From a virus (Duplodnaviria > Caudoviricetes), in the IMG/VR virus record IMGVR_UViG_3300023270_000004, positions 1 through 41,398 of that record: DNA of 41,398 nt; one strand, given 5' to 3'. Positions 23,564-30,239 of this stretch are shown here, piece after piece. Positions within the stretch are counted from its first letter, which is position 1, and the number at the start of each line of letters is the position of its first letter. Below the pieces are notes generated by a model. The model ran no database searches. It was not told the origin of the DNA and saw only the letters and a list, made by a program, of their open reading frames with translations. The position numbers were made by a program, and so were the translations under genes.

Positions 23564-24387
23564 TCGACACCGCCGTCCTGCACTATCTGCAGGACAAGGC
23601 CCACCTGAAGAGCATCCAGTCCGCACGCGAGAACCTGGCCTCGATCGCGTGGGCCTATGAGGGCAAGTCGCTGGCCGAGCTCGCCGCGGTGGCCACGGTG
23701 GTCAACGCCACGCGGCAGGGCGTCCGGGATGGCGTGACGCTGTCCGACGCCACCGTGCACAACCGCCTGGCGCTGCTCAAGGCGGCCTGCCGGTGGGCAT
23801 GGAAGAAGCACGGCATCTGCGAGAACGACCCCACCACCAGGATGATCCTGCCGGCGGTGCGCAACGAGCGCCACGTCTACGCCGGCCGGGCCGAGCTCGG
23901 GCGCCTGCTGCGTGCTGCCGATCGCCGGGACGTGCGCGCGATGATCCTGGCCGCCTTCTACACCGGCATGCGGTTCGGTGAGCTGAGGCGCGTTGCCGTC
24001 GACGGCGGCGCCATGGTGCTGGAGGACACGAAGAACGGCGAGCGGCGCGTGGTACCGGTGCACCCGAAGCTCGAGCGGCTGGGAATCCTGGCGATGCTGC
24101 CCCTGGAGACGCCCGAGAGCACCCTGCAGCGCGGCTTCCAGCGCGCCCGTGTGCGGGCCGGGCTCCCGCACATCCGCATCCACGACCTGCGCCACAGCGC
24201 CGCCAGCGAGATGGTGAACGCCGGGGTGGACCTGTTCACTGTGGGCCGTGTGCTGGGGCACAAGGACCCGCGTAGCACCGCGCGCTACAGCCACCACCAG
24301 GCGGAGACGCTCAAGGCAGCGGTGGGCAAGATCGGGAGAAAATCCCCGCACACTGCCGACAAAAAAGGCCACCCGAAGGCGGCCTGA
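23371..24387 (+). CDS. int: Tyrosine integrase (338 aa)
   Basis: YTGMRFGEL (R), TKNG (K), HDLRHSAAS (HxxR), LGH, RYSH (Y). Start placed at MPIRWDK. Confidence 0.95.
   Translation: MPIRWDKRNKRWRYEFDRVIEGRRQRTSRLLPQGWSQAQADAFDRKEGARLYAVGTGIERADALIDTAVLHYLQDKAHLKSIQSARENLASIAWAYEGKSLAELAAVATVVNATRQGVRDGVTLSDATVHNRLALLKAACRWAWKKHGICENDPTTRMILPAVRNERHVYAGRAELGRLLRAADRRDVRAMILAAFYTGMRFGELRRVAVDGGAMVLEDTKNGERRVVPVHPKLERLGILAMLPLETPESTLQRGFQRARVRAGLPHIRIHDLRHSAASEMVNAGVDLFTVGRVLGHKDPRSTARYSHHQAETLKAAVGKIGRKSPHTADKKGHPKAA
24360..24384 (-). terminator. Intrinsic terminator for the reconstituted tRNA, embedded in the int 3' end
   Basis: Minus strand GGCCGCC-TTCG-GGTGGCC-TTTTTT, about 20 nt downstream of the tRNA CCA. 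Confidence 0.8.
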
Positions 24388-24405
24388 TTTCGTTCGATTT
24401 ACCTA

Positions 24406-24462
<57 letters not shown>

Positions 24463-24688
24463 GCGGCATGCGCGCCCCGCACATAGGTGCAACGCCCGTG
24501 CGCCGCGCGCGAAAAGCGCGTCGAACGCGCCGAGTTGGGAGGAAATCTCCGCACACATCCCCCATCATGGGGATGCCGGGCGCGCATTTCTCACGCCCAC
24601 GGCGCCATGGCAGGAGCACAATAAGCGAAGCCGGATCAACGCGACAACGCTGACCCGGCCTCTGACCACACTGCGAAAGGACCGCATC

Positions 24689-24847
24689 ATGGCTACCACA
24701 AAGTCTACTCTTCCTGCATTGCTCTTGGCTCTGCTGCTGTCCGCCTGCGGCGGTGGCACGCTGTACGACGAGCCGACCGAGCACCACCCGACGACGCTCC
24801 CGTCAGTGCCGGCGCCCGACCTCCCGGCCAGCGCCCCGACGGACTGA
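24689..24847 (+). CDS. Small lipoprotein (52 aa), moron-like
   Basis: MATTKSTLPALLLALLLSAC|GGG..., lipobox LSAC; SD AAAGGA; Pro-rich mature part. Confidence 0.75.
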   Translation: MATTKSTLPALLLALLLSACGGGTLYDEPTEHHPTTLPSVPAPDLPASAPTD

Positions 24848-25306
24848 TCAGGAAACGATCTTCAGCTGGATGTTCGAGAGCGTCCCTCCGACGCTGTAGG
24901 TCTGGATGTGCACGCGAACTTGCCACGGCCCGGGCTCGGCGACGTCGAGCGTTGCGGTTTGGTCGATGGGGATCATTTGGCCGCCTGCGGCGGTGATGGT
25001 GTAGTTCCGGTGGGCCGTGCCGCTCGAGAACAGGCCAGCGCCGCTCGGATCAAGGGACACGAGCGCCTCACCCGGGCCGTCAACCTGAAGTTGGCCGGTC
25101 ATCGTCAGCTTGTAGCGGCCAGGCTTCACGAAGTTGTGGGTGATAGGCGTTGCCCAGGCGCCGCCAGCGGACAGTTTGATGACCTGGTCGCCGGCTTTCA
25201 CCTCGACCACCGGCGCCGGCTGAACAGGCTCTTCCGTGCTGCTCTTGCCGCACGCTACCAACGCCAGCACTACCGTAGTGCACGCTGCCATCGCCTTGAT
25301 ACCCAT
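24848..25306 (-). CDS. Lipoprotein with beta-sandwich-like domain (152 aa), moron-like
   Basis: MGIKAMAACTTVVLALVAC|GKSS lipobox LVAC; beta-strand-rich mature part; G-rich SD. Confidence 0.75.
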   Translation of the reverse strand: MGIKAMAACTTVVLALVACGKSSTEEPVQPAPVVEVKAGDQVIKLSAGGAWATPITHNFVKPGRYKLTMTGQLQVDGPGEALVSLDPSGAGLFSSGTAHRNYTITAAGGQMIPIDQTATLDVAEPGPWQVRVHIQTYSVGGTLSNIQLKIVS

Positions 25307-25347
25307 CTCGCCCCCCTGATTTTGATCGGACGGGTATGGTCGCTCAG

Positions 25348-25623
25348 TTACTGGCTCGGTGCAACCTGTTGCATGCCGGCCAGGGCAGCCGCCCTGCACT
25401 TCCAGTACTGCGCCGCCACCTCCTCGAGCTTCAGCGTGGTCGCCCCGAAGGTGTCATCGGCCAGAGGCTGGAGCGGCGGGCAGCTGGCCACCACCAGCGG
25501 GCTCGGCCCCGGGTTCGGTAAGCGCGGCATTGAGCCGCTGCAGGCCTGCAGGGTCGTGGCGGCAATCGCGGTACACAGGAACCTCGCGCACCGTGGTTTC
25601 GAGCTGCTGGCGGATCTGGACAT
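25348..25623 (-). CDS. o-spanin (Rz1-like lipoprotein)
   Basis: Lipobox LQAC, Pro-rich, Cys pair. Overlaps the i-spanin 3' half in another frame. Start approximate. Confidence 0.75.
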   Translation of the reverse strand: MSRSASSSKPRCARFLCTAIAATTLQACSGSMPRLPNPGPSPLVVASCPPLQPLADDTFGATTLKLEEVAAQYWKCRAAALAGMQQVAPSQ

Positions 25624-25816
25624 GGCGAACCTCGATCTTGCTGATGGCGGATGCCGCTGCGCTGGCGGCAGCCTCGGTGGCCGCGACGCGCACGTCCTCG
25701 ACGCGCTGGCGGGAGGCGATCTCGGCGTTCTCGCCGTCGTGCCGGCCACGCACGTAGGCGGTGCCGGTCAGCGCGCTGGCCGCCAGGACGATGCCCAGGA
25801 GCGCCCAGGGATTCAT
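25454..25816 (-). CDS. i-spanin (Rz-like)
   Basis: N-terminal TM, coiled region, VYRDC..D..GL..LN.AL; follows the endolysin. Confidence 0.8.
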   Translation of the reverse strand: MNPWALLGIVLAASALTGTAYVRGRHDGENAEIASRQRVEDVRVAATEAAASAAASAISKIEVRHVQIRQQLETTVREVPVYRDCRHDPAGLQRLNAALTEPGAEPAGGGQLPAAPASGR

Positions 25817-26292
25817 TCGGTCATCTGCGCGACGCGGATCGCCGTCTCAGCCGTGGCGCCGTTGAACAGTTCGCGCTCGGCGGCGCGCCGACGGCGCAGC
25901 CCCTTCATAGACTTGCCGGCCGCCTTGTCCCAGCGCTGGAACTCGGCTGCCGCGCCGGCCACATCGCCGAGCATGAACTTGCGAAGCAGCGTCGAGCCGC
26001 GGATATTCGCCGGCCCGCAGTTGAAGCAGATCAGCACCAGCGCATCGAACTGCCCTTGCGTGCCTCGCCCTTCGGTCATCTGATCGACGACCTCCTCGAA
26101 TCGCTTCAGGTCGGCCGACAGCGCCTTGTCGACGAGGTCATCCGCCCACGCCAGGCCCTTGAAGACCTCCGGCCCAGTGTGGCCGACCCCGATGGTCCAC
26201 GGGTCACCGCCGGTCGCCGGGTCCGGGTATGCTGCGTTCTCGCGGCCCTCGAAGTACTCCAGGACGCGGCGGCCCTCGGGAGAGGTCTTCAT
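25813..26292 (-). CDS. Endolysin, GH24 phage lysozyme
   Basis: FEG....AYPDPATGGDPWTIGVGHTG, QGQFDALV...FN.G...STLLRK, WDKAAGK...GL.RRR.AE..LF. No SAR segment. Confidence 0.95.
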   Translation of the reverse strand: MKTSPEGRRVLEYFEGRENAAYPDPATGGDPWTIGVGHTGPEVFKGLAWADDLVDKALSADLKRFEEVVDQMTEGRGTQGQFDALVLICFNCGPANIRGSTLLRKFMLGDVAGAAAEFQRWDKAAGKSMKGLRRRRAAERELFNGATAETAIRVAQMTE

Positions 26293-26555
26293 CGCGCAGC
26301 CCTCCGCAACAGCCCCATGATCTGGTGCCGGCGTCCCAGCAGCACCGCCAGCAGCAGCAGGTTCACCAGCAGCACCAGGACGTTGGCCTGCGCCCAGTCG
26401 TAGAGCGTGCAGCCGAGCCACCAGCCGCACCAGAGCACGATTGCCCACACGGTGAGCCTGGCCAGCCACATGCCTCGGTGCGGCATCGCGAACGCCGCCG
26501 GGACGGTGCACATGAGGATTGCCGCGCAGATCAGCGCGTTGACGACGTCAGGCAT
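26289..26555 (-). CDS. Membrane protein, about 3 TM (holin/antiholin candidate)
   Basis: 88 aa, three hydrophobic segments, basic C-terminus; coupled to the endolysin. Confidence 0.65.
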   Translation of the reverse strand: MPDVVNALICAAILMCTVPAAFAMPHRGMWLARLTVWAIVLWCGWWLGCTLYDWAQANVLVLLVNLLLLAVLLGRRHQIMGLLRRAAR

Positions 26556-26955
26556 TGCCGGACTCCTTTGTGGATGAAGGATCGAATCGGGCCAGCAGCC
26601 ACTTCTGCAGCAGGCCGGCGATGGGCTGAGCGAAGCCGCCCAGGAAAGCGCCGACGGCGAGCCGCACCGCGCCCGGCGGCACCTCGGCGAGGGCGAAAGT
26701 GCGCACGACCCATGGCGCCATCAGTAGGGTGCCGATCGTGCTCAGTAGCGTGCTGCCGATGGCAACCAGCACCAGCTGCCGGATCGATGCATCATCCTTC
26801 GTCGGCAGCAGTGTTCGCACGATGACGCAGCCGGCGACACCGCCGACCATGCCGCCCATGAGCAGCATCGGGTCGAACCCGAATGCCGCGCAGAACGGAG
26901 CCACGACGGCCCCGGTTGCGACGCAGACGGCCGCGCTTGTCGTGGCTTCAGCCAT
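26548..26955 (-). CDS. Holin candidate (135 aa, 3-4 TM)
   Basis: MAEATTS... start with Gly/Ala-rich TMs, typical of proteobacterial phage holins; SD AGGGGGA. Confidence 0.65.
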   Translation of the reverse strand: MAEATTSAAVCVATGAVVAPFCAAFGFDPMLLMGGMVGGVAGCVIVRTLLPTKDDASIRQLVLVAIGSTLLSTIGTLLMAPWVVRTFALAEVPPGAVRLAVGAFLGGFAQPIAGLLQKWLLARFDPSSTKESGNA

Positions 26956-27319
26956 CGTTGTTCCCCCTGAAAAGCAGATACGCGGCCAGCGCCGCAGCGA
27001 GAGCCAGCCCGATGACACCGAGCGGCAGATTCAGTCGCGTGGAGCACAGCGGCTGACCGGGCTTGACGGGCCACGGATCCAGCACGTACCAGGTGTTGCA
27101 TCCGATGACCATCACCTTGAACAGGCTCAGCAGCGCGACCACGGACCACACCTCGACGCTGCCGAAGGCTAGGCCGGCCAGCACCAGCAGGCCCAGCGTC
27201 ATCAGCGCGCCGGCGATGTTCTGCACGTCAGCCGAGATCGCTGGCGACGACCATGCGTAGGCGTAGGAGCACGCGAGGCCGAACACCAGCAGGCTCAGCG
27301 CGACCACCGGGTGCCTCAC
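26948..27319 (-). CDS. 4-TM membrane protein with Cys-pair loop (123 aa)
   Basis: GTG start overlapping the peptide stop; four hydrophobic segments; GC-NTWYVLDPWPVKPGQPL-C between TM3 and TM4. Confidence 0.7.
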   Translation of the reverse strand: MRHPVVALSLLVFGLACSYAYAWSSPAISADVQNIAGALMTLGLLVLAGLAFGSVEVWSVVALLSLFKVMVIGCNTWYVLDPWPVKPGQPLCSTRLNLPLGVIGLALAAALAAYLLFRGNNDG

Positions 27320-27423
27320 TTCGGGTTCGTGGGAACCGTGCCGCCGCCGGTGTCCTGCGTGCTCACACCGCGGCCGAGGATGGCCGACCAGAGGTTCGCG
27401 AAGTAGGCTTTGACCTTCTGCAT
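27316..27423 (-). CDS. 35-aa peptide, not in ORF track
   Basis: MQKVKAYFANLWSAILGRGVSTQDTGGGTVPTNPK*. Fills the gap 9 nt after the tailspike stop, has GC3-rich codons, and has a GTGA overlap with the next gene. Confidence 0.7.
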   Translation of the reverse strand: MQKVKAYFANLWSAILGRGVSTQDTGGGTVPTNPK

Positions 27424-27432
27424 GATGTGCTT

Positions 27433-29946
27433 TCAGTTGACGCTGCGGCAGACTTCCCACCACGTCGCGCCATCGCAGGCGAGGGTGATGGTGTCGTCAG
27501 CGGTGGTGACGAAATTCCCCGCGAGAGCCAGGTTGCTGCCGTCGGTCACGGTCAGCGCGCCTGAGAAGATCAGCGTGACGACGTCGCCGGCGCGGTTTGT
27601 CGCACTGATCGACGTGATGCTCGTCGTGCCAGAGACCTTCACCACTGGCGCAGCGAATGGCAGCGTCAGCGCCGCGGCGGAGGCAACTGTGTCCACCACC
27701 CCGACCTCGGTGTAGGTGCGCGAGGCGAGGTAGGCTTGAGCGTCTTGGCGCGTCGGGAAAGATCGAGCCTGAAAGGCTGACAACTGAAAGTCGCATGTCA
27801 CCGCGGCGCTGCCAGCTGCCAAGTTCAGCGTCCCGATGCCGGAGGCCCGTCCGATCATGGCGATCGTGTAGGTCTTCCCAACCTCCGGCACGCTCATCGC
27901 CGCACCGAATTGGTTGCTGCCAAGGTCGCCGTAGTAGAAGAGTGGGCTGCCACCGGACACGCGCTGCACCTCGAACGTGCAGACGTACCAGTTCCCGGCC
28001 GCCGTCGTTATAAAAGTCCCCGGGAAATTCACGAACTGCGATGTCAGCGTGAACGGTATCGAGTATTGGTTGACAGCTTGGTACAGCTCGCCACCTGGCG
28101 TGACGACGCCAGCCACGGCGAAGGCGCCAGTTGTGGTTTGCGCAGCGGTGAATCGCTGGCTGACCGCAACAGCGCTGCGCGCATTTTTAATGATTTGCGC
28201 CCGGCGCAGCGTGTAGAACCAGCGCGCTTGTGCATCGCCGAAGGTCTGAATGTCATTGCGCTTGGTCTCGACGATGCCGGTTGTGTAGATCCTTGCGCCC
28301 CGGACCGCGCCACCGTCGGTCTCCGGCGAGTCCACAAGAATGACAGAATCAGCATCATCGACAGTGCAGGATCCGCCACCGAAGCCTGTGAACTCCTCGG
28401 ATCGGACGTTATAGGCCATCACGCGGGATCTGAGCGCCTTGAGGTAAACGTCCGCGAAGAAACCTCCGCGATGCTCCCATGTCGAATCGGCGCCGTCGTA
28501 AATGAAAGCGCGATTCGTGAATACCGAGGTGCTCAGCACCGTCCCGGCCCATTGGTCGAGCGCGAACGTTCCGCCGTGGCGTACACCACTATCCTCGCTC
28601 CAAACGCCACTCAATGTGAACGGGTCGCGTGTGGTGGTGGTGTAGCAATAGATGTTGATCCCATTCGCCTCCAGGATCGTCCCGCGAAGCTGAAACCCGC
28701 CAAATCCGTCGGCCGTGTTATGAACGTAGATGGCGCAGTCGTTGGCGCTGAATTCGCAGTCGAAGATGTATTTGTTGCCAGCATGCATTGTGGCGCCGAA
28801 CTTATTGTTCAGGGCGTAGATTGCATACTTGTTGGCCTGCGCACCGCAGCCATAGAACGAACAGCCAATATTCCCGAACGGAAATTGAACAGCCTTCTCG
28901 AAACCACTCCAATAAATTCCAAAGAACTTGGTGTTGCCAGCAAACTCGTCGTCCGTGACATAGTTTGCCGGGATGGTCTGGCCGAAAGTAATCCCGACAC
29001 CAACCTTCGTGATGCCGGGATTGGGGCCAGCCATTGTGAAGTTTCTGAACTCAGCTTGGAAAGTCCAGAAGGCATTTTTCTTGCACGTGAACGCAGCGAC
29101 AGCAGTATTGAATGCGGAAACGACGGTCTGAATTCCGTCCCCGTAAATCACGAAACGCTGCGTCAGGTCGACGTTGAATTTCCAGGTTCCTTTGTCGATG
29201 TGCAGCGTCCGACTCAGCGCGAGCGCCACATTCACAGCTGCGGAGCTGTCCGTCGCACCGGTCGGGTCGGCGCCCGGAAAGGTGCTCAACCGCGGCGCGA
29301 GTCGGTCGTAGTAGCCGATCGTGCCGACAGCATAGTTGACGGTCGGGCCGTAGGCGACAGCGCCGGCGCCATTCAGCGCGCCGGCGGGGCTGGCAAGTTG
29401 CGCGATGTACGCGGCGATGGCCGCTGACGCTGCCGCCGATAGCGTGCGGTTTTCCGTGTCGGCCTCGTCGATCGCGGCCTGCACATTGGTGGCCGCAAGC
29501 GTCGCAGTCGGCGTGAATGGAATTCCAGACGCGGCTGTTGCGGTGCCGACCTGGACAAGCACCCACCGGACGGCCGCCAAATCGGTTGCGAAGACACCAG
29601 AGGTATGCGCCACCGCGGCCGCGTAGGTGTTGCCGCTCTGCGTGACGACATCCTTGATTGCATAGGAGGTTGCCGTCAGCCACGCCCCTCGGATCGTGCC
29701 ACCGAACGCAGTCACGAACTTCAGCACGACTGGGTCGAGCGTGTGCAGCTTCACCCGCTGGTCGCGGATCTCGCCGTCGTCGCGCTGGTTCAGCTGGACG
29801 TTGGCGTTCAGCGCGTTGTGCGCCGTGGATATGGCCGAGAGCTCGTCGTCGAGCGCTTCCGTGAGGATCGTGCTGCGCCCGCCCGCGTTGTTGAGCTCGT
29901 CCTGGCTGAAGTCTTCGCTCGGGGTGTAGTTCGGGGCCTGTGCCAT
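27433..29946 (-). CDS. Tailspike/receptor-binding protein (putative beta-helix depolymerase)
   Basis: Head-binding N-terminus, CBM5/12-like W..ATSY...DVV...GNTY.A..AHTS, ATNVQAAIDE linker, GADPTGATDSSAA beta-helix start, C-terminal beta domain. Confidence 0.85.
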   Translation of the reverse strand: MAQAPNYTPSEDFSQDELNNAGGRSTILTEALDDELSAISTAHNALNANVQLNQRDDGEIRDQRVKLHTLDPVVLKFVTAFGGTIRGAWLTATSYAIKDVVTQSGNTYAAAVAHTSGVFATDLAAVRWVLVQVGTATAASGIPFTPTATLAATNVQAAIDEADTENRTLSAAASAAIAAYIAQLASPAGALNGAGAVAYGPTVNYAVGTIGYYDRLAPRLSTFPGADPTGATDSSAAVNVALALSRTLHIDKGTWKFNVDLTQRFVIYGDGIQTVVSAFNTAVAAFTCKKNAFWTFQAEFRNFTMAGPNPGITKVGVGITFGQTIPANYVTDDEFAGNTKFFGIYWSGFEKAVQFPFGNIGCSFYGCGAQANKYAIYALNNKFGATMHAGNKYIFDCEFSANDCAIYVHNTADGFGGFQLRGTILEANGINIYCYTTTTRDPFTLSGVWSEDSGVRHGGTFALDQWAGTVLSTSVFTNRAFIYDGADSTWEHRGGFFADVYLKALRSRVMAYNVRSEEFTGFGGGSCTVDDADSVILVDSPETDGGAVRGARIYTTGIVETKRNDIQTFGDAQARWFYTLRRAQIIKNARSAVAVSQRFTAAQTTTGAFAVAGVVTPGGELYQAVNQYSIPFTLTSQFVNFPGTFITTAAGNWYVCTFEVQRVSGGSPLFYYGDLGSNQFGAAMSVPEVGKTYTIAMIGRASGIGTLNLAAGSAAVTCDFQLSAFQARSFPTRQDAQAYLASRTYTEVGVVDTVASAAALTLPFAAPVVKVSGTTSITSISATNRAGDVVTLIFSGALTVTDGSNLALAGNFVTTADDTITLACDGATWWEVCRSVN

Positions 29947-29988
29947 CGGTGCGCCTCAGCGGCCGGCGGACTGCCGAGCCTCAGCGGC

Positions 29989-30022
29989 ATTGCATCGCCG
30001 ATGGAGGGGCGTTTTCCCCGCG
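29989..30022 (-). promoter_or_regulatory. Putative late promoter motif copy (CGCGGGGAAAACGCC-N13-TGCAAT)
   Basis: Intergenic, upstream of the tailspike; same spacing as the other copies. Confidence 0.65.
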
Positions 30023-30047
30023 AATGCCCTCGCGCTACACTGGCGCC

Positions 30048-30239
30048 GTGGACAACGACACCTTGCGCATCCTGCTGGCGGCCGTGCTCGGCCCGGCTTT
30101 TTGGGCCTTCGCGATCCGCCTATCGGCGCATCTGGCCCGTCGCAACGCCAGCCGCGACTGGCACCGGCGCGAACAGCGACGACAGCGCCTGTACGAGCTT
30201 GGGGTCTATCTCGGTCGGCTGTGTCGGCGCACCCGATAG
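30048..30239 (+). CDS. Small antisense single-TM protein (63 aa), leaderless
   Basis: TACACT (30036-30041) 6 nt before GTG; ILLAAVLGPAFWAFAIRL TM followed by an Arg-rich tail. Overlaps the 3' end of 30120-32348. Confidence 0.6.
   Translation: MDNDTLRILLAAVLGPAFWAFAIRLSAHLARRNASRDWHRREQRRQRLYELGVYLGRLCRRTR

What the first reader, a model, noticed from the sequence alone, without database searches (positions are those of the whole stretch)
26948..27423. Top candidate: peptide plus 4-TM sensor-like pair heading the lysis cassette
Seen: an unannotated 35-aa ORF, MQKVKAYFANLWSAILGRG-VSTQD-TGGGTVPTNPK. It has a basic amphipathic N-terminal helix and a polar Gly/Pro tail, i.e. a leader-plus-core layout like a signalling propeptide. 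It is GTGA-coupled to a 123-aa 4-TM protein with a C-x17-C loop (GCNTWYVLDPWPVKPGQPLC), which is in turn coupled to the holin candidates. Known analogies are T4 lysis inhibition, arbitrium and AgrD propeptides, but this pair does not resemble those proteins by eye. Inference: the peptide or its processed tail, released at lysis or exported, is sensed by the TM protein and tunes holin triggering. That would be a peptide-based lysis-timing or communication module in a Gram-negative phage. An intracellular antiholin or toxin-antitoxin-like pair is an alternative.
Basis: partly seen in the sequence, partly recalled or inferred. Interest (0 to 1): 0.8.

Follow-up and report, generated by a model that had tools for sequence, protein, structure and literature searches.

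The report
Phage peptide tag and membrane sensor
Many uncultured phages carry, beside their cell-bursting genes, a short glycine/proline peptide tag that travels with a small four-helix membrane protein of no known family; the protein likely senses the tag once infected cells burst and would then adjust when the next cell bursts.

Summary
The pair is real and conserved. The 123-aa protein belongs to an unnamed 4-helix family (186 representatives, C-x17-C loop, no Pfam, PHROG or fold match). All 43 loci found by its motif alone carry an upstream ORF ending in a Gly-run/Pro tail; the background is 16 of 6,953. Of 45 tail-motif hits, 39 lead straight into the gene. Only the tail is conserved. It rides on amphipathic helices, membrane anchors, soluble proteins or an endolysin fusion, and is repeated up to four times with mostly silent differences. 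Tail type follows the membrane protein's tree; carrier type does not. Lysis genes follow in 28 of 36 clusters, and one natural fusion joins the protein to the next membrane gene. Charge rules place the tail inside the cell and the protein's conserved face outside. Best model (0.45): a rupture-released peptide is sensed at the periplasmic face and tunes the holin. Binding, release and any lysis effect are untested. One complete phage has the tail without the protein, and the charge pairing rests on two independent contrasts.

The parts
27316..27423 (-). 35-aa tag-bearing ORF: basic, moderately amphipathic N-terminal helix plus conserved C-terminal tail
   Evidence: homologous position in 43 clusters
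27316..27360 (-). the conserved tag (residues 22-35, TQDTGGGTVPTNPK, and the stop); the only conserved part of the ORF
   Evidence: near-identical tails on unrelated carriers in L002 (102-aa soluble protein), L091 and L134 (membrane anchors)
27370..27423 (-). interchangeable carrier (amphipathic helix here; membrane anchor or soluble protein elsewhere)
   Evidence: (16 changes on the tree against 16.7 shuffled)
26948..27319 (-). 123-aa four-helix inner-membrane protein of an unnamed family, candidate sensor; GTG start overlaps the peptide's stop
27044..27100 (-). C74-x7-PW-x8-C92 loop, predicted periplasmic and probably disulfide-closed
   Evidence: C74 118/124, W83 122/124, C92 117/124; spacing kept in 103 of 128
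26548..26955 (-). 135-aa three-helix membrane protein, holin/antiholin candidate coupled to the sensor gene
   Evidence: positional counterparts hit holin families weakly (L107 phrog_198 E 1e-6; L114 PF16931 E 0.004)
26289..26555 (-). 88-aa membrane protein, holin candidate directly before the endolysin
   Evidence: position only
25813..26292 (-). endolysin (phage lysozyme) with no hydrophobic anchor, so it needs a hole-forming holin
   Evidence: PF00959 E 6e-35, phrog_7 E 3e-44; no TM segment
25454..25816 (-). Rz-like inner spanin; a lipoprotein-like frame overlaps it (within ORF 25749..25348, start not fixed)
   Evidence: phrog_1152 E 6e-4
27433..29946 (-). 837-aa tail-spike-like gene 9 nt upstream; places the pair in the late operon
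   Evidence: weak PF02839 and PF25692 hits; no promoter-like site found in 24300-30200

Best explanation
The two genes are a conserved pair in which a Gly/Pro C-terminal tag is likely the ligand of the four-helix protein, which would bind it at its predicted periplasmic face once infected cells rupture and would then likely tune the holin-type protein encoded next door. SHOWN: both genes are conserved together; only the tag is conserved, at the protein level, on freely exchanged carriers; tag type follows the membrane protein's tree; a small membrane gene and usually lysis genes follow. INFERRED step 1 (about 0.7): the tag binds this protein. INFERRED step 2 (from charge rules): late in infection the tag is made on the cytoplasmic side and the conserved pocket (positions 17-21, 33-34, 67-68, the Cys loop) faces the periplasm, so an intact cell cannot trigger itself. 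INFERRED step 3 (about 0.6 given step 1): lysis of neighbours spills the tag, non-specific proteases trim it to a Pro-protected piece of about 6-10 residues (about 620-950 Da), and it crosses the outer membrane of other infected cells. INFERRED step 4 (about 0.65): the protein has no cytoplasmic domain, so it signals by helix contacts to the adjacent holin/antiholin, most likely delaying lysis when many kin infections have just burst. That is lysis inhibition with a peptide in place of a superinfecting virion.
For: Two-way linkage: 43 of 43 membrane genes have the tag, against a background of 16/6,953; 39 of 45 tags lead into the gene, including 15 of 21 contigs not found before. Protein-level selection: all four Pro codons, GAG/GAA 11:11 and all three stops occur; internal repeat copies differ at 33-37 silent against 4-7 replacement codon pairs. 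Action at a distance from the gene: in three clusters (L082, L115, L120) the tag lies 0.6-0.7 kb further upstream on three different carriers, one an endolysin-membrane fusion. Specificity: tail class needs 6 changes on the tree against 17.4 shuffled, while carrier needs 16 against 16.7; Lys34 goes with a P-x-E tail in 23 of 23 against 0 of 20; Lys68 occurs only in the four clusters with a TQD(T/S)GGG tail. Topology: Lys+Arg total 4.7 on the termini and loop 2 against 1.8 on loops 1 and 3; outer helix halves are more conserved (entropy 2.1-2.4 against 2.5-3.1); 19 of 21 anchors are N-out/C-in. Penultimate Pro in 36 of 43; by general knowledge this blocks carboxypeptidases. Output: a natural in-frame fusion to the next coiled-coil/TM gene (P0164; halves 80% and 57% identical to the separate L006 proteins); lysis-family hits near 28 of 36 clusters, with at least six endolysin families.
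Against: No experiment and no expression data. The charge pairing rests on only 2 independent contrasts (sign test p 0.5), and physical adjacency alone would also co-inherit tail and gene. The type of the next gene tracks the tree as tightly as the tail does (6 against 15.5). G403 (L064; 100% complete) has the tag before a holin-like gene but no family member, which fits a tag acting on something else. L150 has no Gly run. L028 and L114 are frameshifted and L072 has lost two helices. Eight of 36 clusters show no lysis-family hit nearby; in L003 and L006 the pair sits among virion genes. Peptides of this size are at or above the usual porin limit (recalled), and no release protease or uptake gene was seen. 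Topology comes from charge rules only. The holin identity of the window's neighbours is positional.
Confidence: 0.45

Rival explanations
1. Same-cell checkpoint. The tag and sensor meet only when the cell's own holin opens the inner membrane, which gives feedback that makes triggering all-or-none or hands on to the next lysis step. No communication between cells.
For: Uses the same topology and needs no outer-membrane passage. The tag is usually tethered to the membrane, and once sits on an endolysin-membrane fusion (L120).
Against: Lineage-specific tag and sensor variants and up-to-fourfold repeats suggest specificity and dose, which a one-cell switch needs less.
Confidence: 0.2
2. Intracellular lysis-regulator complex. 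The four-helix protein is a P2 LysA-type antiholin or holin partner, and the tag is a cytoplasmic docking or degradation motif that binds its inner face, the holin or a host protease.
For: All carriers put the tag in the cytoplasm. G403 has the tag plus a holin-like gene without the four-helix gene. Four-helix antiholins exist (PMC3091744, passages).
Against: The residues that change with the tail (17, 34, 68) and the invariant Cys/PW loop are on the predicted outer side, and the inner halves are the most variable. No antiholin or holin family matches (1 of 124 members, E 0.004).
Confidence: 0.15
3. AgrB/AgrD-like export. The four-helix protein processes or exports the tag, and the receptor lies elsewhere in the phage or host.
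For: An amphipathic leader plus core coupled to a membrane gene. Repeated cores are each preceded by Leu-Arg in one lineage.
Against: No conserved cleavage residue before the Gly run (10 different residues). No invariant His, Asp or Glu. No AgrB match. The tag also occurs on soluble proteins and away from the gene.
Confidence: 0.1
4. Cis-acting translation element. The Gly/Pro tail pauses the ribosome, or its G-rich codons aid re-initiation, and so set the dose of the next gene.
For: The tag's stop overlaps or abuts the next start in most loci. The carrier is irrelevant. Pro near a stop is known to slow termination (recalled).
Against: Internal copies far from any stop or start are kept at the amino-acid level. 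Tail class follows the membrane protein even when the two are separated by two genes. Codons vary freely. No Rfam match in the pair.
Confidence: 0.07

Closest known systems
T4 lysis inhibition (antiholin RI / holin T); also ICP1 ArrA/TeaA, N4 LIN, BSPM4 ORF52
   Same: Proposed outcome: a periplasm-side sensor restrains a holin when kin phage are dense (PMC6116005, PMC6832632 and PMC7182436 passages; PMC11657625 and bioRxiv 10.1101/2025.11.12.688109 abstracts).
   Different: There the signal is a superinfecting virion and RI is a secreted periplasmic protein. Here the candidate signal is an encoded peptide tag and the sensor a four-helix membrane protein with no sequence or fold match.
Arbitrium (AimP-AimR-AimX) and other RRNPP systems
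   Same: An adjacent small-peptide gene and putative receptor, lineage-specific peptide variants and repeated cores.
   Different: RRNPP receptors are intracellular and the systems are of Firmicutes and their elements (PMC10075063, abstract start and passages); arbitrium steers lysis against lysogeny. Here the partner is integral to the membrane, the carriers look non-secreted, the named host is a proteobacterium, and most complete carriers lack a tyrosine integrase.
P2 LysA and the separate multi-helix antiholins of Burkholderia P2-like phages
   Same: A small four-helix membrane protein inside a lysis cassette. The antiholin-holin-endolysin order described in PMC3091744 (passages) resembles the genes downstream here.
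   Different: No family match. The protein is an extra gene ahead of that pair and has a Cys-closed outer loop and an obligatory-looking peptide tag; the passages read describe neither for LysA.
agr (AgrD/AgrB/AgrC), from recall
   Same: Amphipathic membrane-targeting leader plus core, next to a membrane gene.
   Different: No Cys in the tag, no AgrB or kinase domain, exchangeable leader, lysis-cassette context.
Kin-lysis danger sensing in Pseudomonas aeruginosa (RetS/Gac; PMC4348357 and PMC9992862, search listing and abstract start only)
   Same: A Gram-negative cell responds to material released by lysed kin.
   Different: Those are host systems that use host molecules. Here both the signal and the sensor would be phage genes.

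Membership tests
Arbitrium / RRNPP | adjacent intracellular TPR-type receptor | tested here: not met
   the adjacent gene is a four-helix membrane protein with no such domain in 124 members; whole genomes were not scanned for AimR
Arbitrium / RRNPP | secreted propeptide with an export signal | tested here: inconclusive
   no signal-peptide predictor on hand; charge pattern is N-out/C-in in 19 of 21 anchors, and other carriers are amphipathic or soluble
Arbitrium / RRNPP | confined to temperate phages, controls lysis-lysogeny | tested here: inconclusive
   tyrosine integrase in the window but in only 4 of 15 near-complete relatives; serine integrases and plasmid prophages not tested
agr (AgrD/AgrB/AgrC) | conserved Cys (or Ser) in the core for ring closure | tested here: not met
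   no Cys in any of 43 tails, and no conserved Ser
agr (AgrD/AgrB/AgrC) | AgrB protease or AgrC kinase as the membrane partner | tested here: not met
   no Pfam match in 124 members; no NCBIfam match in 4 members; no longer fused forms among the candidates scored (weak)
T4-type lysis inhibition | RI-like secreted antiholin and T-like holin with a periplasmic domain | tested here: not met
   no PHROG or Pfam match for the pair or the window's neighbours
T4-type lysis inhibition | lysis delay at high phage density | not testable with these tools
   needs infection experiments
P2 LysA-type antiholin | four membrane helices, separate gene in the lysis cassette | tested here: met
   LysA's four helices from PMC3091744
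P2 LysA-type antiholin | sequence membership of a known holin or antiholin family | tested here: not met
   1 of 124 members touches a holin PHROG at E 0.004, none in Pfam
P2 LysA-type antiholin | delays holin triggering | not testable with these tools
   needs co-expression
Any solved membrane fold | structural match | tested here: inconclusive
   best VIA Z 8.0 (rmsd 3.5, 84 aligned), which is ordinary for helical bundles

The most novel reading that the evidence does not exclude
Phages of Gram-negative bacteria have their own peptide language. A portable Gly/Pro tag, kept inside the cell until it bursts, is read by a lineage-specific membrane receptor wired directly to the holin, so kin infections coordinate lysis timing without secretion machinery or transcription. 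Phages with the tag but no receptor (G403) would be senders or jammers.
Probability: 0.35. Interest if true: 0.93.

Novelty: categorically new. Interest (0 to 1): 0.8.

Why it matters
In the papers searched, phage peptide signalling is known from Firmicutes (arbitrium, RRNPP), and lysis inhibition from a few phages where the signal is a superinfecting virion. This module names a candidate ligand of about 6-14 residues that can be synthesised, a 123-aa candidate receptor, natural cognate and non-cognate variants for specificity swaps, and a cultured lysogen (Rhizobacter sp. SG703). The question of whether phages of Gram-negative hosts signal by peptide, and whether lysis timing can be set by a diffusible signal, becomes directly testable. 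Even under the rival readings it is an undescribed lysis-cassette module spread over many unrelated cassettes.

Tried and rejected
Complex prediction of A2 with peptide alignment A6 gave 'no answer' (score 0.00) and is not used either way. Fold searches of the sensor model found no Foldseek match at E<=0.001 in PDB or BFVD and a best VIA Z of 8.0. The ESM Atlas gave only unnamed clusters at 0.86-0.90. Pfam, PHROGs, NCBIfam and PADLOC gave no family. tblastn of three members in 50,697 GenBank phages and one in plasmids found nothing. The search for longer fused forms found none, which is weak evidence. No RNA holder was listed; contigs of run X9 were probably DNA. The metagenome scan for the window-type tail returned only a contig of the window's own length (L137). 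A second tail scan gave 8 hits, 7 already known and 1 chance (L140). Three weak genome hits (L146-L148) were unrelated membrane proteins and were dropped. The 171-aa upstream extension of the membrane ORF was rejected: close homologues start at the GTG/ATG that overlaps the tag's stop. The accessory gene of the rearranged loci folds as a membrane anchor plus a generic Ig-like sandwich, which was not informative. Double-glycine leader and arrest-peptide analogies (recalled) were dropped: the residue before the Gly run is not conserved, and internal copies are kept. Literature searches showed no description of this pair; most subscription papers and all supplements were not seen.

Full report
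1. Observation. The window is a 41,398-base virus record with portal, terminase, replication genes and a tyrosine integrase. On the minus strand an 837-aa tail-spike-like gene ends 9 nt before a 35-aa ORF (27423..27316). Its stop overlaps the GTG of a 123-aa gene (27319..26948), followed by 135-aa and 88-aa membrane genes, an endolysin and a spanin. Both genes of the pair show coding-type GC3 (0.89 and 0.87). A contig from a second study is identical over 26500-27536. The peptide's helix is only moderately amphipathic (p 0.038 or 0.33, depending on scale).

2. The membrane protein is a real, unnamed family. Four close homologues seeded a profile that found 186 representatives at E<=0.001, of which 150 were listed. 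Of these 154 proteins I kept the 127 of 90-175 aa; the 27 dropped were mostly long repetitive proteins. Alignment A2 has 124 rows: the query and 123 others, leaving out one near-copy and three partial rows. C74 (118/124), P82 (112), W83 (122) and C92 (117) are near-invariant, and the C-x17-C spacing holds in 103 of 128. No library names it. AlphaFold gives four helices at pLDDT 96 with no telling fold match. No GenBank phage matched three members tried. The one named host is Rhizobacter sp. SG703. In genome samples around it, matches were 3 of 401, 4 of 401 of which 3 were false, and 4 of 58; those I read lie beside phage tail or lysis-type genes.

3. The tag always comes with it. In the Rhizobacter prophage the upstream gene is an unrelated 102-aa protein, yet it ends in almost the same tail (TQDTGGGTKPTIPK against TQDTGGGTVPTNPK). 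All 29 viral loci found with a subfamily alignment have an overlapping upstream ORF ending in a Gly-run/Pro tail, mostly GGGGPxEPx. A DNA scan for the Cys loop alone gave 55 hits, 43 of them family members and 12 chance. All 43 have a tail, 36 adjacent and 7 about 0.6-0.7 kb further up. The same pattern ends 16 of 6,953 other reading segments; I wrote the pattern after seeing the tails. The reverse scan, for the tail alone, gave 45 hits, 39 with the gene starting at the tail's stop (15 of 21 among contigs not seen before). Of the six others, four look like chance, L060 is cut by the contig end, and L064 lies in a complete genome with no family member. Distant prophage homologues have the tails SGGTAEE (L149), GGGGPGPK (L151) and, without a Gly run, RPIWRPNK (L150).

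4. What is conserved is the tail, as peptide. Across 43 clusters at 80% identity, the carrier is a membrane anchor (21), a helix or other short leader (18) or a larger protein (4). The larger ones include a soluble 118-aa protein whose counterpart in L003 is a separate gene, and a 376-aa endolysin with two C-terminal hydrophobic segments (L120). Pro, Glu and stop codons vary synonymously. In one lineage the core is repeated two or four times, and the fourfold copies differ at 33-37 silent against 4-7 replacement codon pairs; start-site or stop-context effects cannot explain the internal copies. The penultimate residue is Pro in 36 of 43, while the residue before the Gly run takes ten forms. 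The tail therefore reads as a flexible linker plus a Pro-rich end, not a leader with a defined cut site.

5. Tag and protein change together. On a tree of 42 proteins (L114 left out as frameshifted), tail class needs 6 changes against 17.4 in shuffles. The carrier in the same ORF needs 16 against 16.7 (I reassigned two carrier labels by eye). Lys34 accompanies a P-x-E tail in 23 of 23 clusters and in 0 of 20 others. Lys68 marks the four clusters with the window's TQD(T/S)GGG tail. Against over-reading this: there are only 2 independent contrasts (p 0.5), the next gene's type tracks the tree equally well (6 against 15.5), and adjacency alone would co-inherit these parts. Partly in its favour, the separated loci L082, L115 and L120 keep the tail class of their neighbours on the tree, though they probably share one rearrangement.

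6. Topology and output. Lys+Arg average 4.7 over the termini and loop 2 against 1.8 over loops 1 and 3, which puts both ends in the cytoplasm and the Cys loop in the periplasm. Outer helix halves are more conserved than inner ones, and the co-varying residues lie there. Anchors have the more positive flank after the helix in 19 of 21 cases, so the tail would be cytoplasmic. The protein has no cytoplasmic domain. The next gene is a multi-helix holin/antiholin-like gene in 18 clusters, a coiled-coil with one C-terminal helix in 19, and a 44-aa helix in 3 (40 of 42 scored). P0164, seen on 6 contigs, fuses the sensor to the coiled-coil type in frame; a single lost stop could also explain it. I scanned 120 neighbouring proteins: most of the 145 called downstream, minus duplicates and evident shadow frames, plus some upstream genes. 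By my count 28 of the 36 clusters with enough flank have an endolysin, holin or spanin hit, 8 have none, and 7 were too short. At least six endolysin families occur, so the module moves between cassettes. A tyrosine integrase was found in 11 of 46 records and 4 of 15 near-complete ones, which points to lysis timing rather than lysogeny.

7. Mechanism. I commit to a rupture-gated ligand-sensor pair (0.45): the tag is hidden inside until cells burst, is read at the outer face of the four-helix protein in other infected cells, and is relayed to the coupled holin-type protein, most likely as a delay. Binding, release, outer-membrane passage and the sign of the effect are all inferred. The rivals are a same-cell checkpoint (0.2), an intracellular antiholin complex (0.15), AgrB-like export (0.1) and a cis translation element (0.07). 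The tag-only genome G403 and the size of the peptide are the main loose ends.

8. Relation to known systems. It would work like T4 lysis inhibition, where secreted RI binds the periplasmic domain of holin T on superinfection (PMC6116005, passages; PMC6832632, passages). It is laid out like a peptide-receptor pair such as arbitrium (PMC10075063, passages; PMC13389391, passages, in which 'Gram-negative' does not occur). It fails the defining features tested for arbitrium, agr and RI/T, and shares only helix number and place with P2 LysA (PMC3091744, passages). ICP1 ArrA (PMC7182436, passages), N4 (bioRxiv, abstract) and BSPM4 ORF52 (PMC11657625, abstract) show lysis delay in other phages without a peptide in what I read. 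Nine literature searches showed no description of the pair; supplements were not examined. This scan's earlier notes hold no look-alike by sequence. Two word matches describe analogous peptide-plus-membrane pairs in other phages; I could not test them.

9. Verdict. The signalling reading is supported by linkage, selection, co-variation and topology, but not shown. Interest 0.8.

Noticed in passing
L064 (G403, 50,988 bases, 100% complete): GGGGGPVEPT tail on an 85-aa coiled-coil-like protein directly before a holin-like gene, with no family member in the genome: an orphan, a sender only, or a hint that the tag has another target.
   Followed up: partly
L082 84-1421, L115 1344-2811, L120; probably L060: Rearranged module: tag, short membrane ORF, ~150-aa anchored Ig-like protein with two conserved Cys, four-helix gene, 44-aa helix. 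The Ig-like fold is generic.
   Followed up: partly
L120:3393-4520 (-), protein P0155: 376-aa fusion of an endolysin (phrog_90) with a two-helix C-terminal part (weak phrog_1544), ending in the tag.
   Followed up: partly
P0164: Natural 235-aa fusion of the four-helix protein with the downstream coiled-coil/TM protein.
   Followed up: partly
L003:3383-3727, L006:3421-3750 and 17 more clusters: Unnamed family of 95-125-aa coiled-coil proteins with a C-terminal helix and an 'LDxHL...MATK.DI' pattern, in the holin position; no Pfam or PHROG name.
   Followed up: partly
G137 (L034, L035, L036): One bacterial genome holds three divergent copies of the pair with two different tails.
   Followed up: no
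L017:2661-2897, L022:2627-2866, L029:2580-2840: An ~80-aa membrane protein with a DK..H..G motif often sits just before the tag gene; no family hit.
   Followed up: no
L028, L114, L072: Frameshifted (L028, L114) or internally deleted two-helix (L072) versions of the membrane gene beside an intact tag; decay or sequencing error.
   Followed up: no
window 24385-24490: Just after the integrase: a terminator-like hairpin and a stretch with a weak structured-RNA hit at 24409-24458 that looks like a tRNA-end attachment site; ARAGORN finds no whole tRNA.
   Followed up: no
window 24848-25399 (-) and 24565-24759 (-): Two lipoprotein-like ORFs after the spanins, with no family hit for the stretches scanned.
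   Followed up: no
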